Shown piece after piece: positions 1 to 4,967 of a stretch of DNA of 4,967 bases. A model generated the notes under the pieces. The model searched no databases. It saw nothing but the letters and a program-made list of their open reading frames with translations, and had not been told where the DNA came from. Origin of the DNA: a virus (lineage: Duplodnaviria > Heunggongvirae > Uroviricota > Caudoviricetes). Positions within the stretch are counted from its first letter, which is position 1, and each line of letters starts with the position of its first letter. A program made the position numbers and the translations under genes. The stretch lies in IMG/VR virus record IMGVR_UViG_2657244940_000010. One strand, 5' to 3'.

Positions 1-1
1 G

Positions 2-3001
2 GAAGTTCGCCTGCTGGTTCAGATACAGCGTAACGGTGGCTGGGTGACGGAAAAAGACATCACCATTAAGGGCAAAACCACCTCGCAGTATCTGGCCTCG
101 GTGGTGGTGGATAACCTGCCTCCGCGCCCGTTCAATATCCGGATGCGCAGGATGACACCGGACAGCACCACAGACCAGCTGCAGAACAAAACGCTCTGGT
201 CGTCATACACCGAAATCATCGATATGAAACAGTGCTACCCGAACACGGCACTGGTCGGTGTGCAGGAGGACTCGGAGCAGTTCGGCAGTCAGCAGGTGAG
301 TCGTAATTATCATCTGCGCGGGCGCATTCTGCAGGTGCCGTCGAACTATAACCCGCAGACGCGACAATACAGCGGTATCTGGGACGGAACGTTAAAACCG
401 GCATACAGCAACAACATGGCCTGGTGTCTGTGGGATATGCTGACCCATCCGCGCTACGGCATGGGGAAACGTCTTGGTGCGGCGGATGTGGACAAATGGG
501 CGCTGTATGTCATCGGCCAGAATTGCGACCAGTCGGTGCCGGATGGTTTTGGTGGCACGGAGCCGCGCATCACCTGTAATGCCTGGCTGACCACACAGCG
601 TAAGGCGTGGGATGTTCTCAGTGATTTCTGCTCGGCGATGCGCTGTATGCCGGTATGGAACGGGCAGACGCTGACGTTCGTGCAGGACCGGCCGTCGGAT
701 AAGGTGTGGACCTATAACCGCAGTAATGTGGTGATGCCGGATGATGGCGCGCCGTTCCGCTACAGTTTCAGCGCCCTGAAGGACCGCCATAATGCCGTTG
801 AGGTGAACTGGATTGACCCGGATAACGGCTGGGAGACGGCGACAGAGCTTGTGGAGGACACGCAGGCCATTGCCCGTTACGGTCGTAACGTCACGAAGAT
901 GGATGCCTTTGGCTGTACCAGTCGGGGGCAGGCACACCGAGCCGGGCTGTGGCTGATTAAAACGGAACTGCTGGAAACGCAGACCGTGGATTTCAGCGTG
1001 GGCGCAGAAGGGCTTCGCCATGTGCCGGGCGATGTTATTGAAATCTGCGATGATGACTATGCGGGTATCAGCATCGGCGGGCGCGTGCTGGCGGTGAACA
1101 GCCAGACCCGGACGCTGACGCTCGACCGTGAAATCACTCTGCCATCCTCCGGTACCACGCTGATAAGCCTGGTTGACGGAAGCGGCAATCCGGTCAGCGT
1201 GGAGGTCCAGTCCGTCACCGACGGCGTGAAGGTAAAAGTGAGCCGGGTTCCTGACGGCGTTGCCGGATACAGCGTGTGGGGGCTGAAGTTGCCGACGTTG
1301 CGCCAGCGCCTGTTCCGCTGCGTGAGTATCCGTGAGAACGATGACGGCACGTATGCCATCACTGCCGTGCAGCATGTACCGGAAAAAGAGGCCATCGTGG
1401 ATAACGGGGCGCACTTTGACGGCGACCAGAGCGGCACGGTGAATGGTGTCACGCCGCCAGCGGTGCAGCACCTGACTGCCGAAGTCACCGCAGACAGCGG
1501 GGAATATCAGGTGCTGGCGCGCTGGGACACGCCGAAGGTGGTGAAGGGGGTGAGCTTTATGCTTCGCCTGACCGTGGCAGCGGATGACGGCAGTGAGCGG
1601 CTGGTCAGCACGGCCCGGACGACGGAAACCACATACCGCTTCACGCAACTGGCGCTGGGGCGGTACACGCTGACAGTCCGGGCGGTAAATGCGTGGGGGC
1701 AGCAGGGCGATCCGGCGTCGGTATCGTTCCGGATTGCCGCACCGGCAGCACCGTCGAGGATTGATCTGACGCCGGGCTATTTTCAGATAACCGCCACGCC
1801 GCATCTTGCCGTTTATGACCCGACGGTACAGTTTGAATTCTGGTTCTCGGAAAAGCGGATTACCGATATCAGGCAGGTTGAAACCACAGCCCGCTATCTT
1901 GGCACGGCGCTGTACTGGATAGCTGCCAGTATCAATATTAAGCCGGGCCATGATTATTATTTTTATATCCGCAGTGTGAATACTGTTGGCAAATCGGCAT
2001 TCGTGGAGGCTGTCGGTCAGGCGAGCGATGATGCTTCCGGCTATCTGGATTTTTTCAAAGGCCAGATAACTGAATCCCATCTCGGCAAGGAGCTGCTGGA
2101 AAAAGTCGAGCTGACGGAGGATAACGCCAGCAAACTGGAGGAGTTTTCGAAAGAGTGGAAAGACGCCAACGATAAATGGAATGCCATGTGGGGCGTCAAA
2201 ATTGAGCAGACCGAAGACGGCAGGCATTATGTCGCGGGTATTGGCCTCAGCATGGAGGATACGGAGGAAGGCAAACTGAGCCAGTTCCTGGTTGCCGCTA
2301 ACCGTATCGCGTTTATTGACCCGGCAAACGGGAATGAAACGCCGATGTTTGTGGCGCAGGGCAACCAGATATTCATGAACGAAGTGTTCCTGAAGTATCT
2401 GACGGCTCCCACCATTACCAGCGGCGGCAATCCGCCGGTATTTTCCCTGACACCGGACGGGCGGTTGACGGCGAAAAATGCCGATATCAGCGGTAACGTG
2501 AATGCGAACTCAGGGACGCTCAATAATGTCACGATTAACCAGAACTGTCGGATTCTGGGAAAACTGTCTGCCAACCAGATTGAAGGTGATATTGTCAAAA
2601 CGGTGGGAAAAGCCTTTCCGAGAAATGGCAGTTATGCCAGCGGTACAATAACGGTCACTGTGTACGATGACCAGGCTTTTGACCGTCAGATAGTAATCCC
2701 ACCCGTTCTGTTTCGCGGTGGTAAGCATGAAAACTTCAACAGCAACAACCAACAGTCATACTGGTATTCAACCTGTAAGCTGCAGGTACTGAAGAACGGA
2801 CAGGAAATCTTTCAGCAACCCGCGACGGATGTCAGCAGGGTATTTTCATCCGTCATTGATATGCCAGCGGGACACGGCCATGTCACCCTGACTTTCAATG
2901 TTTCTTCATATGGTGCAAATAACTGGACGCCAACGACCAGTATCAGCGACCTTCTTGTTGTCGTGATGAAGAAATCAACAGCCGGTATCAGTATCAGTTG
3001 A
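2..3001 (+). CDS. J: Tail tip / host specificity protein J (central tail fiber), lambda-like; 5'-partial, the N-terminal part lies upstream of the window
   Basis: The frame opens at position 2 with no stop ([25 protein letters not shown]...) and runs to TGA at 2999..3001. The translation matches lambda gpJ as I recall it over most of its length, including the FN3-like central region and the conserved [16 protein letters not shown] motif. The GTG at 44 used by the ORF track is an internal codon, not the real start. The last ~150 aa differ from lambda J. Confidence 0.95.
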
Positions 3002-3019
3002 ATTTTATAACCCAAATAC

Positions 3020-3048
3020 GGGCGCCAGAAATGGCGCCTTTTTTATTT
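3020..3048 (+). terminator. Rho-independent terminator downstream of J
   Basis: Read directly: stem GGGCGCCA (3020..3027) pairs with TGGCGCCT (3032..3039), with one G-T wobble at the base, around a GAAA tetraloop (3028..3031), followed by TTTTTTATTT. It begins 19 nt after the J stop codon. Confidence 0.65.
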
Positions 3049-3050
3049 GT

Positions 3051-3054
3051 GGAG
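3051..3054 (+). promoter_or_regulatory. Shine-Dalgarno sequence (GGAG) for the stf-like gene
   Basis: GGAG lies 5 nt upstream of the ATG at 3060. Confidence 0.6.
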
Positions 3055-3059
3055 TGAAT

Positions 3060-4712
3060 ATGGCAGTACAGATTTCAGGCGTGCTGAAAGACGGTGCAGG
3101 AAAACCAATACAGAACTGTACTATTCAGCTCAAAGCAAAGCGTAACAGCACCACGGTACTGGTGAACACGGTGGCCTCTGAAAATCCGGATGAAGCCGGG
3201 CGTTACAGCATGGATGTTGAGTATGGCCAGTACAGCGTCACCCTGCTGGTTGAAGGTTTTCCGCCTTCACATGCCGGGACCATTACCGTCTATGAAGGTT
3301 CCAGACCAGGTACGCTGAATGATTTTCTCGGTGCCATGACGGAAGATGATGTCATGCCGGAGGCATTGCGTCGTTTTGAGGTAATGGTGGAGGATGTGGC
3401 ACGCAACGCTGAAGCCGCCTCTCAGAGCGCAGCGGCAGCAAAGAAATCAGAAACAGCAGCGGCATCGTCCAGGAACGCGGCGAAAACATCAGAGACGAAT
3501 GCAGGTAACAGCGCGAAAGCGGCAGCTTCTTCAAAAACAGCCGCACAAAACGCAGCAACAGCGGCAGAACGTTCAGAGACAAATGCCCGTGCGTCAGAAG
3601 AAGCCTCCGCAGACAGTGAAGAGGCTTCCCGCCGTAATGCAGAGTCAGCCGCTGAAAATGCCGGAGTCGCCACCACAAAAGCGCGGGAGGCTGCAGCAGA
3701 CGCAACAAAGGCCGGGCAGAAAAAGGATGAGGCTCTGTCGGCAGCGACACGAGCTGAAAAGGCGGCAGACCGCGCAGAAGCCGCAGCGGAAGTGACTGCA
3801 GAGCCCTATGCGAATATAGTGCCGCCGCTGCCTGATGTGTGGATACCGTTTAACGATTCACTGGATATGATTGCGGGTTTTTCTCCGGGCTATAAAAAAA
3901 TAGCTATTGGTGACGATGTGGTTCAGGTCGCCAGTGATAAACAGGTTAATTTCAGTCGCGCATCAACGGCAACATATATCAACAAATCTGGCGAACTGAA
4001 AACGGCGGAAATTAATGAGCCGCGATTTGAGTGTGATGGCCTGCTTATTGAGGGACAAAGAACGAACTACATGCTCAATTCGGAAAGTCCAGCCAGCTGG
4101 GGGAAGTCATCAAACATGGATGTGCCCGAAACCGGGACGGATAGTTTTGGTTTTACTTATGGAAAGTTTGTCTGCAACGATTCTCTGGTTGGGCAAACTT
4201 CGGCTATTAATATGGCATCAATTGCTGCAACAAAGTCAGTTGATGTCTCAGGCGATAACAAGTACGTGACAACCTCATGCCGTTTTAAAACAGAACGACA
4301 GGTAAGGTTACGTATACGGTTTGATAAGTATGATGGTAGTGCAACAACTTTTCTTGGCGATGCGTACATTGATACGCAAACGCTTGAAATTAATATGACA
4401 GGTGGTGCTGCCGGCAGAATTACGGCACGAGTCAGGAAGGATAAGACCACGGGCTGGATTTTTGCAGAGGCAACGATTCAGGCAATTGATGGAGAGTTAA
4501 AAATAGGCTCTCAGATACAGTATTCTCCTGAGCAGGGTGGGGCAATCAACGGTACGCACCGGCTCCGGTTGTCCTGGTGCCTCTTTTTGATGGAGCTGCA
4601 CTTCGTCGGCCTGCAGACGGCTGTTACCCTGCATGATATCCACGCTGCCAGTAAACACGGCGTCATCCGGGTAGTCCCCTTTCGCGTGGTCAGCATTGAT
4701 AGTCACGGGTAA
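3060..4712 (+). CDS. stf: Side tail fiber protein Stf homolog, 3'-truncated and chimeric: phage-derived codons 1 to ~495 (3060..~4544) followed by ~56 codons read through antisense lptD
   Basis: ATG at 3060 with a GGAG site upstream; the GTG at 3054 in the ORF track is probably not the start. The N-terminus [33 protein letters not shown]...[14 protein letters not shown]...[13 protein letters not shown] matches the conserved N-terminal domain of lambda Stf and StfR-type fibers. An Ala/Ser/Glu-rich shaft with KTSETNA-type repeats follows, then a distinct distal module ([26 protein letters not shown]...). After ...[10 protein letters not shown] the reading frame is antisense to lptD, and the stop at 4710..4712 lies in host-derived sequence. 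Confidence 0.85.
3400..3800 (+). repeat. Low-complexity Ala-rich coding repeats in the tail fiber shaft (imperfect repeats of GCAGCGGCAGC and TCAGAGAC[G/A]AATGC)
   Basis: Read directly: reiterated GCn codons and SETNA-like peptide repeats. This region generates the spurious overlapping ORFs at 3394..3795 (+), 3352..3750 (-) and 3422..3676 (-). Confidence 0.6.
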
Positions 4713-4859
4713 GTCATTGGTATCGCCCTGTACCAGAGGACGGTCATAGCTTGGCACGCCCAACATGCACTGTGAGGCGAGGTCGGCTGCCAGTCCCTGT
4801 TGACTATAAAGGGCGGTGGCAATCATGGTGGCCAGGAGAGTGGGGATACGTTTTTTCAT
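4497..4859 (-). CDS. lptD: LPS-assembly protein LptD (Imp/OstA), N-terminal fragment: native first 105 codons including the signal peptide, then 15 non-native codons and a stop; probably a gene remnant
   Basis: The - strand ATG at 4859 gives [105 protein letters not shown], which matches the E. coli LptD N-terminus as I recall it. Homology ends at about 4545; the frame then runs through phage-derived sequence to TAA at 4497..4499. Confidence 0.85.
4540..4550. other. Novel joint between phage tail fiber DNA and inverted host lptD 5' region (breakpoint approx 4544/4545, uncertain by about 10 bp)
   Basis: On the - strand, codons for ...EPVRTVD (ending at 4545) match native LptD, which I recall continuing ALGNVHYDD. 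Here the next codons are CPTLLRR..., and on the + strand the sequence left of ~4544 is in frame with the stf-like gene. Confidence 0.7.
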
Positions 4860-4967
4860 ACGTTGATTTTATTGTTCCATCATCGGTAACGTTGCGCGTG
4901 ACAAACGGTCAGAGACTAACGTACTCGTCATCTCTACGCTAGTGTTAATCCTGTCCGAATAGCGTCT
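4860..4967 (-). promoter_or_regulatory. lptD 5' untranslated / upstream region (promoter not precisely located)
   Basis: The 108 bp upstream of the lptD start codon are non-coding on both strands apart from a spurious antisense ORF. Native lptD is known to have sigma-E-dependent transcription, but I could not place a convincing -35/-10 pair by eye. Confidence 0.4.

What the first reader, a model, noticed from the sequence alone, without database searches (positions are those of the whole stretch)
4545..4712. Stf ORF reads through about 56 codons of antisense lptD; no tfa chaperone gene follows
The predicted 551-aa fiber (counting from the ATG at 3060) would end in a nonsense tail ([20 protein letters not shown]...) in place of a normal C-terminal receptor-binding tip. 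The tail fiber assembly gene tfa, which normally follows stf in lambdoid phages, is absent. The side fibers are therefore probably non-functional, as in defective prophages or laboratory lambda with its stf frameshift, or the true distal part lies elsewhere.
Basis: partly seen in the sequence, partly recalled or inferred. Interest (0 to 1): 0.55.

Follow-up and report, generated by a model that had tools for sequence, protein, structure and literature searches.

The report
Chimeric contig: tail-fibre gene joined to lptD
The odd tail on this phage tail-fibre gene is the reverse strand of the essential gene lptD, butted onto the fibre gene at a junction found only in this one small draft-assembly contig, so it is most likely a sequencing or assembly chimera.

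Summary
Phage homology ends and lptD homology begins at window base 4545. Stf codons 496-550 are the exact codon-aligned antisense of lptD codons 105 to 51.

The window is the whole of contig CDRA01000264.1 (4,967 bp) from draft E. coli assembly GCA_000947375.1. The two parents share one base at the join. In close relatives both are single-copy loci about 1.16 Mb apart. The join is absent from 5,426 complete E. coli genomes and from the plasmid, GTDB, IMG/VR, JGI metagenome and protein collections. lptD is essential, so this cannot be the cell's only lptD copy.

The native fibre is the 686-aa phage-21-type Stf. The break at residue 495 falls inside a confidently predicted beta-sandwich, just before its last strand, and also removes the distal lectin-like domain.

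The "missing tfa" argument fails. Viable phage 21 has no tfa after this fibre type. The closest prophage is already defective, with an endolysin-J deletion fusion.

Best reading: an in-vitro or assembly chimera (about 0.6). Main rival: the novel joint of a real duplication (about 0.3). Interest is low.

The parts
1..3001 (+). 3' part of the tail-tip/host-specificity gene J. It runs off the left contig end and gives 999 codons in frame.
   Evidence: ORF; gene-3001; 99.96% identity to gpJ of the MS8320 prophage; Pfam GpJ domains on the relative.
3020..3045 (+). Terminator-like hairpin with a T run between J and stf.
   Evidence: The same element is annotated as a terminator in phage 21.
3060..3452 (+). 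Stf N-terminal domain (PF08400 phage_tail_N, residues 1-131).
   Evidence: Pfam E=3e-67; residues 1-94 match PDB 9e7m 'Tail fiber protein' at E=7e-49.
3060..4544 (+). Native stf codons 1-495 of a 686-codon phage-21-type side tail fibre gene.
   Evidence: There is one mismatch to MS8320 in this span (4493 A versus T).
4545..4545 (.). Junction. This single A is the only base shared by both parents. The phage continues CAGTATC..., and lptD is preceded by ...GAGCGC.
   Evidence: Three-way alignment. No shared word of 11 nt or more within 400 nt on either side of the junction.
4545..4712 (+). Read-through tail of the stf ORF (codons 496-550 plus TAA), which is the codon-aligned antisense of lptD codons 105-50.
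4545..4859 (-). lptD codons 1-105 only (signal peptide plus the start of the periplasmic N-terminal domain). It is 100% identical to lptD of B2-group strains.
4497..4859 (-). Reciprocal chimeric ORF of 120 aa: LptD residues 1-105 plus a 15-aa antisense-stf tail ([15 protein letters not shown]).
   Evidence: This product is not on record anywhere else.
4860..4967 (.). First 108 nt of the lptD-djlA intergenic region. The contig ends here in sequence that is single-copy in every complete E. coli genome.

Best explanation
The 168-nt tail is not fibre-coding sequence. It is the antisense strand of the first 105 codons of the essential outer-membrane gene lptD, joined bluntly to codon 495 of a phage-21-type side tail fibre gene. 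That fibre gene belongs to the defective sitABCD-carrying prophage at icd in B2-group E. coli. The fibre frame happened to enter the codon-aligned antisense frame of lptD. That frame is nearly stop-free because its stops need the rare sense codons TTA, CTA or TCA, so translation would run 55 codons to the antisense of Leu50 TTA. The join exists only in this 4,967-bp contig of a draft assembly. It is most likely an in-vitro chimera, meaning two unrelated genome fragments ligated during library preparation, or an assembler or gap-closer misjoin built on such reads. In that case the strain's real stf 3' end and real lptD sit intact on other contigs. Shown here: the exact junction, the parentage of both sides, the frame geometry, the uniqueness of the join, and the domain truncation. 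Inferred: that the join arose in vitro and not in the cell.
For: The window is the entire contig CDRA01000264.1 of GCA_000947375.1, and the chimeric protein is on that one contig only. Phage identity ends and lptD identity starts at 4545 with 1 nt of overlap and no shared word nearby. That fits blunt ligation and excludes a repeat-mediated graph misjoin. The join is absent from 5,426 of 5,426 complete E. coli genomes, each of which carries the 731-bp lptD-djlA segment once and unbroken. It is also absent from plasmids, GTDB representatives, IMG/VR and JGI metagenomes, and from the 5.8-billion-cluster protein collection, where no hit covers more than 58% of a junction-spanning peptide. The Lpt proteins are essential in E. 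coli (PMC4986956), so a lone lptD cut at codon 105 is not viable. The native continuation of stf is single-copy in the closest genomes, and the DNA beyond the contig end is single-copy in all genomes. So the contig leaves one unique locus for another and stops 423 nt later in unique sequence. The contig's only two differences from the closest prophage are private T-to-A changes found in no complete genome. One lies 52 nt before the junction and one lies 267 nt from the left end. That is the pattern expected of thinly covered contig tips. By my own rough estimate, a private change within 52 nt of the junction has a chance of about 0.01.
Against: No reads are available, so coverage across 4545 could not be checked. 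A de Bruijn contig needs reads that physically span the join, and most assemblers discard single chimeric reads. The orientation of the two parts is exactly what the novel joint of a tandem duplication would give. The other contigs of the assembly could not be inspected for an intact lptD or the stf 3' end.
Confidence: 0.6

Rival explanations
1. The join is real: it is the novel joint of a duplication. In close relatives lptD (about 0.059 Mb) and this stf (about 1.22 Mb) lie on the same strand. A tandem duplication of the roughly 1.16-Mb interval from lptD codon 105 to stf codon 495 would create exactly stf(1-495) joined to lptD(105-1)-djlA, while leaving one intact lptD and one intact stf. 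A smaller ectopic copy of the lptD 5' region inserted into the prophage would also fit. It would further explain why the contig stops at 4967, if a second joint lies there.
For: Strand and order in LF82 and NRG857c match the required topology. The assembler did produce a contig through the joint, so spanning reads existed. Both halves are 99.96-100% identical to the same B2 strains, so one genome can supply both.
Against: The 1-nt microhomology is unusual for E. coli illegitimate recombination, which typically uses several nucleotides and has no classical end-joining pathway (background knowledge). The join is a singleton among all collections searched. With a 1.16-Mb duplication the contig should either break at the joint or continue far beyond 4967. 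A private mismatch lies 52 nt from the joint.
Confidence: 0.3
2. The join is a genuine prophage-host boundary: a lambdoid prophage sits in or beside lptD with its fibre gene eroded at the attachment-site end. This is the picture implied by the first reader.
For: In lambdoid prophages the J-stf end does face one host junction (background knowledge). The window shows phage DNA followed directly by host DNA.
Against: The same prophage, 2 mismatches in 4,545 nt, sits at icd. There stf continues into orf92, orf97, sitDCBA and the icd remnant, as it does in phage 21. The break is inside stf and not at an att site. lptD is unbroken and single-copy in 5,426 of 5,426 genomes and is essential (PMC4986956).
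Confidence: 0.03
3. The 55-residue tail is a genuine alternative C-terminus of the fibre.
For: The frame is open and the ORF was called as a gene in the contig.
Against: The tail DNA is 100% identical to native lptD on the opposite strand. No homologue ends this way: the cluster has 2,232 members and its representative is 686 aa. The openness of the frame is a property of lptD's antisense frame. The break removes the last strand of a folded domain.
Confidence: 0.005

Closest known systems
Side tail fibre of Escherichia phage 21 (OL657228.1 CPT_21_22, 686 aa) and its copy in the defective sitABCD prophage at icd of B2-group E. coli (e.g. MS8320, LF82)
   Same: The gene order J, terminator, stf is the same. 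Nucleotide identity over codons 1-495 is 96.6% to phage 21 and 99.96% to MS8320. The PF08400 N-terminal domain, the Ala-rich coil and the start of the GTA-head-fibre-like domain are shared.
   Different: The window copy stops being stf after codon 495. It lacks the last strand of the first distal beta-sandwich, the whole lectin-like distal domain (weak Laminin_G_3 match at 560-681), and the downstream orf92, orf97 and sitDCBA.
Laboratory lambda (PaPa) stf frameshift and other eroded prophage tail-fibre genes
   Same: The result is a fibre ORF that lacks its receptor-binding end. Natural erosion of this same gene family does occur: an IS66-type element at the 3' end in Lambda_4C10, 1W and 4A7, and an IS3 insertion in strain N1131.
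   Different: Those are local lesions (a frameshift or an IS element) inside an otherwise collinear phage. Here the gene is joined to a chromosomal locus about 1.16 Mb away with no mobile-element sequence at the joint.
Chimeric contigs or chimeric library inserts in short-read draft assemblies
   Same: The join is blunt with almost no microhomology. It links two single-copy loci of the same genome. It is a singleton. The contig is short, with a foreign arm of only 423 nt, and it carries private mismatches near the phage-segment ends.
   Different: This was not demonstrated directly, because no read-level data were available.
RcGTA head fibre Rcc01080 (PDB 6TB9; NCBIfam NF048003 GTA_spike_fiber)
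   Same: Native Stf residues about 297-543 are sequence-homologous to Rcc01080 residues 44-285 (E=1e-9). The RcGTA head fibre binds the capsule polysaccharide (PMC7296036, PMC10218006).
   Different: Only residues 2-10 of Rcc01080 are resolved in that entry (PMC7296036), so it supplies no fold. In E. coli the domain sits on a tail side fibre and not on a head spike.

Membership tests
Lambdoid side tail fibre (Stf) | N-terminal PF08400 (phage_tail_N) domain that attaches the fibre to the tail tip | tested here: met
   E=3.3e-67 over residues 1-131. Residues 1-94 match PDB 9e7m 'Tail fiber protein'.
Lambdoid side tail fibre (Stf) | Gene lies immediately downstream of J | tested here: met
   J ends at 3001 and stf starts at 3060. 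The order is the same in phage 21 and Lambda_4C10.
Lambdoid side tail fibre (Stf) | Complete distal receptor-binding region | tested here: not met
   Homology stops at residue 495 of 686. The NF048003 domain (329-529) and the AF2 beta-sandwich (native 334-514) are cut before the last strand, and the region matching Laminin_G_3 (560-681) is absent.
Lambdoid side tail fibre (Stf) | tfa (Caudo_TAP) chaperone gene downstream, as in lambda | tested here: not met
   There is none in the window. There is also none in viable phage 21 or in the intact prophage, where the downstream 92-aa and 97/146-aa ORFs have no Pfam match and fall in PHROGs of unknown function. So tfa is not a defining feature of this fibre subtype.
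LptD (LPS-assembly outer-membrane protein) | Full-length gene with the C-terminal beta-barrel (PF04453) | tested here: not met
   Only codons 1-105 of 784 are present. This is a gene fragment.
Prophage-host attachment junction | The joint lies at the phage att end and recurs at the same host site in other genomes | tested here: not met
   The joint is inside stf. The same prophage ends at icd. None of 5,426 genomes has a break at this lptD position.
Tandem-duplication novel joint | The distal end of the interval is joined to its proximal end in the same orientation | tested here: met
   In LF82 and NRG857c, lptD at about 0.059 Mb (+) and stf at about 1.22 Mb (+) give the required topology.
Tandem-duplication novel joint | Two-fold read depth over the interval and normal-depth reads across the joint | not testable with these tools
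Library or assembly chimera | The joint is supported only by rare or aberrant reads, and both parent loci are intact elsewhere in the same assembly | not testable with these tools
   Support is indirect only: the join is a singleton, it is blunt, the foreign arm is 423 nt and ends in unique DNA, and there are private mismatches near the segment ends.

The most novel reading that the evidence does not exclude
The joint is real and marks a homology-independent duplication of about 1.16 Mb, or an ectopic second copy of the lptD promoter and 5' end, in a clinical B2 E. coli isolate. Such a cell would carry an extra lptD promoter driving a 120-aa secreted LptD N-terminal fragment (ORF 4497-4859, minus strand), convergent with a truncated fibre gene. 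That fragment could in principle interfere with the Lpt bridge.
Probability: 0.25. Interest if true: 0.3.

Novelty: not a real feature. Interest (0 to 1): 0.1.

Why it matters
It matters mainly as a caution. The ORF is real in the deposited record and was gene-called, but its C-terminal tail is antisense lptD at a junction seen nowhere else. It should not be read as a fibre variant, as a prophage inserted at lptD, or as evidence about this phage's host range. It also corrects a rule of thumb: phage-21-type side fibres, which carry a GTA-head-fibre-like domain and a lectin-like distal domain, are not followed by tfa even in viable phage. Absence of tfa is therefore not a sign of decay for this fibre type. 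If the joint proved real, it would document a large homology-independent duplication with an extra lptD 5' copy, which is of modest interest.

Tried and rejected
1. Repeat-mediated misassembly was rejected. The parents share only 1 nt at the joint and no word of 11 nt or more within 400 nt either side. stf paralogues from other prophages share only exact blocks of 36 nt or less, and none of those blocks ends at 4545.
2. I looked for a repeat or IS boundary to explain the contig's right end and found none. The next 477 nt, and the 731-bp segment spanning both breakpoints, are single-copy and unbroken in all 5,426 genomes.
3. I searched for the junction elsewhere: by DNA in complete genomes, plasmids, GTDB representatives, IMG/VR and JGI metagenomes, and by protein with a junction-spanning peptide, the exact chimeric protein and the reciprocal 120-aa ORF. 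Only the source contig came back.
4. I followed P0013, a Logan ORF that ends in the same antisense-lptD tail. It is a different junction (yabP-like to lptD) on a circular unitig of about 1.8 kb in an unrelated sample, so it is not relevant to 4545.
5. I followed P0017, a 491-aa 'partial' Stf on 23 contigs, as a possible recurrent break near residue 495. A spread search showed mosaic boundaries at other positions and none at 4545.
6. A literature search for the assembly or contig accession found nothing. A search for phage 21, side tail fiber and sitABCD together also found nothing.
7. I tried to use PDB 6TB9 as a fold template for the distal domain. Only residues 2-10 of Rcc01080 are resolved there, so I ran an AF2 model instead.
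P0030 was used instead; it matches the native protein over residues 270-646 and then has a frameshifted end.
9. The Foldseek search against PDB gave only low TM-scores (0.37 or less). The best hits were Pseudomonas phage Pa193 and E217 tail-fibre/baseplate proteins, followed by generic two-beta-sandwich hits such as Fabs. I draw no specific fold assignment from it.

Full report
WHAT IS IN THE WINDOW. The window holds three things. The first is the 3' 3 kb of a lambdoid J gene (1-3001), followed by a terminator-like hairpin (3020-3045). The second is an ORF from ATG 3060 (GTG 3054) to 4712. The third, on the other strand, is an ORF at 4859-4497 that begins [24 protein letters not shown]..., which is the N-terminus of LptD. 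An exact-protein look-up showed that the window is the whole of contig CDRA01000264.1, 4,967 bp, from the draft E. coli assembly GCA_000947375.1. The 550-aa ORF product is on record from that contig alone.

CHECKING THE OBSERVATION. Megablast against phage genomes matches the stf ORF from its start to base 1492 of the query, which is window 4545. Identity is 96-98% to Lambda_4C10, 4A7, 1W, mEp460 and phage 21. Against 5,426 complete E. coli genomes, window 4545-4967 is 100% identical to lptD and its upstream region in B2-group strains such as E2348/69, LF82, NRG857c and APEC O2. No genome has a match spanning the junction. Pairwise BLAST gave window 1-4545 equal to MS8320 prophage positions 6402-10946 with 2 mismatches. 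It gave window 4545-4967 equal to E2348/69 lptD-locus positions 3001-3423 with none. A three-way alignment shows the phage ending ...GGGGCAA and continuing CAGTATC, while lptD reads ...GAGCGCA and continues TCAACGG. Only the A at 4545 is common to both, and no shared word of 11 nt or more lies within 400 nt on either side. Codon 496 of the ORF begins at 4545. The tail is 55 codons plus TAA, and the lptD piece is exactly codons 1-105.

WHY THE TAIL IS OPEN. The stf frame enters lptD in the codon-aligned antisense frame. In full-length lptD that frame has 8 stops in 785 codons, against 53 and 32 in the other two plus-strand frames. In the native gene it is open for 243 codons around this position. 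The stop that ends the ORF is the antisense of lptD Leu50 TTA. A native, more divergent lptD locus from a metagenome even had a 139-aa ORF called in the same antisense frame. The tail length is therefore a by-product of lptD codon usage and carries no evidence of coding.

WHAT THE NATIVE GENE LOOKS LIKE. In MS8320 the ORF is continuous for 686 codons from the ATG. Phage 21 has the same 686-aa 'side tail fiber'. The 90%-identity cluster that contains the chimeric protein has 2,232 members and a 686-aa representative.

The domains are as follows:
- PF08400 phage_tail_N at residues 1-131.
- An Ala-rich segment at about 115-250.
- NCBIfam NF048003 'GTA_spike_fiber' at 329-529. This corresponds to a sequence match of residues 297-543 to the RcGTA head fibre Rcc01080.
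- A weak, sub-threshold Laminin_G_3 (ConA-like lectin) match at 560-681.

In PDB 6TB9 only residues 2-10 of Rcc01080 are resolved (PMC7296036), so that entry gives homology but no fold. I therefore collected diverse homologues and aligned them. Conservation runs straight through the break into the family's strongest motif, GDYIY-ATPQVE-G-ASSFI...TRASD. I then predicted the structure of native residues 270-676. P0030 residues about 65-245, which are native 334-514, form a beta-sandwich with block pLDDT 84-96. Its last strand is P0030 232-242, which is native 501-511. The junction is at P0030 residue 226, native 495. It sits between the penultimate and last strands. The fold is therefore interrupted, and the following domain is lost entirely. 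Foldseek's best PDB hits were Pseudomonas phage Pa193 and E217 tail-fibre/baseplate proteins at low TM-scores, and I draw nothing specific from them.

THE tfa ARGUMENT. Phage 21 is a viable lambdoid phage. Its gene order is J, terminator, stf (686 aa), a 92-aa ORF, a 97-aa membrane protein, then sitDCBA. The intact prophage has the same order. The two small ORFs have no Pfam match and fall in PHROGs of unknown function. Absence of tfa is normal for this fibre type and is not evidence of decay.

Separately, the closest prophage is grossly defective. Its 'gpJ' begins with a Phage_lysozyme fragment resembling the phage-21 SAR endolysin, fused in frame to J. This implies deletion of the lysis-distal, head and tail genes. 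The fusion point lies about 390 nt left of the window, so for this strain the defect is inferred from the 99.96% identity.

IS THE JUNCTION REAL? The following facts bear on this:
- Uniqueness. The join is absent from all 5,426 complete genomes. Each of them carries the 731-bp lptD-djlA stretch, which covers both the lptD breakpoint and the contig-end position, once and unbroken. It is also absent from plasmids, from GTDB representatives, IMG/VR and JGI metagenome contigs, and from the protein collection.
- Essentiality. The Lpt proteins are essential in E. coli (PMC4986956), so an lptD cut at codon 105 cannot be the only copy.
- Copy number. The native stf continuation is single-copy in the closest genomes, and the DNA just beyond the contig end is single-copy everywhere. 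Neither the join nor the contig's right end is explained by a repeat.
- Junction chemistry. One nucleotide of overlap is what random blunt joining gives. It excludes a graph misjoin through shared k-mers, so some physical molecule or read carried the join.
- Geometry. The foreign arm is only 423 nt and ends the contig.
- Private mismatches. The contig's only two differences from the nearest prophage, T-to-A at 267 and at 4493, occur in no complete genome. They lie 267 nt from the left end and 52 nt from the junction, as if 4545 behaved like a thinly covered contig tip.
- Topology. In LF82 and NRG857c, lptD (about 0.059 Mb) and stf (about 1.22 Mb) are on the same strand. The observed convergent arrangement, stf 5' part followed by antisense lptD 5' part, is what the novel joint of a tandem duplication of about 1.16 Mb would give. 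It is not what an inversion would give. A simple deletion would remove most of lptD and would be lethal.

VERDICT. The tail is certainly non-coding read-through at a non-native junction. The junction is most likely an in-vitro or assembly chimera (about 0.6). The main rival is a genuine duplication joint or an ectopic lptD 5' copy (about 0.3). A prophage-host boundary at lptD and a genuine alternative C-terminus are effectively excluded. Read mapping, inspection of the other contigs of the assembly, or a single PCR would decide between the first two. None of these could be done with the tools available.

COMPARISON WITH KNOWN THINGS. The gene is a member of the phage-21-type Stf family through residue 495 and fails the 'complete distal domain' criterion. 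It resembles other naturally eroded copies of the same gene only in outcome. Those copies carry an IS66-type insertion (Lambda_4C10, 1W, 4A7) or an IS3 insertion (strain N1131). The lambda PaPa frameshift analogy does not describe the lesion here. Nothing new about phage biology follows from this finding, and interest is low.

Noticed in passing
L007 (Logan SRR25870303_71824), 1-1853: In an unrelated sample, a 1,853-bp unitig has ends that overlap by 30 nt. It carries lptD' (minus strand), djlA, and a YabP-like ORF fused to the same antisense-lptD frame at a different point (window-equivalent about 4634). It looks like a circle or tandem-duplication joint of about 1.8 kb, or another chimera.
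   Followed up: partly
L001 6017-8433 (Lambda_4C10); L006 5517-7933 (phage 1W): Isolated phages Lambda_4C10, 1W and 4A7 carry a three-ORF IS66-type element at the 3' end of stf. This shortens Stf to 642 aa and separates it from the 92-aa ORF.
   Followed up: no
L004 5812-9402 (MS8320): The gene annotated 'gpJ' starts with a Phage_lysozyme fragment (residues 34-83, resembling the phage-21 SAR endolysin) fused in frame to J. This is a deletion that removes the head and tail genes of this sitABCD prophage at icd.
   Followed up: partly
L004 9461-11521 (MS8320): RefSeq splits a continuous 686-codon stf ORF into a 'partial, missing C-terminus' pseudogene (9461-9824) and a separate 'phage head spike fiber domain-containing protein' (9797-11521), although no frameshift or stop is present. 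This looks like an annotation artefact.
   Followed up: partly
window 267 and 4493: Two private T-to-A differences from the closest prophage occur in no complete E. coli genome. At 267 the change turns Val into Glu in J; at 4493 it is synonymous (GGT to GGA). Both lie near the ends of the phage-derived segment.
   Followed up: yes
L004 11518-11796; L005 5564-5842: A conserved 92-aa ORF (phrog_1361, unknown function) overlaps the stf stop codon in phage 21 and the prophages, in the place where lambda has tfa. It may be this fibre type's own assembly factor, but that was not tested.
   Followed up: no
window 4497-4859 (minus strand): A reciprocal chimeric ORF encodes the LptD signal peptide and residues 1-105 plus a 15-aa antisense-stf tail, with the native lptD upstream region retained. 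It is not on record elsewhere.
   Followed up: partly
L010 2912-4140 (strain N1131): An IS3-family element is inserted in a paralogous stf. This is another independent natural disruption of the same fibre family, at a different position.
   Followed up: no
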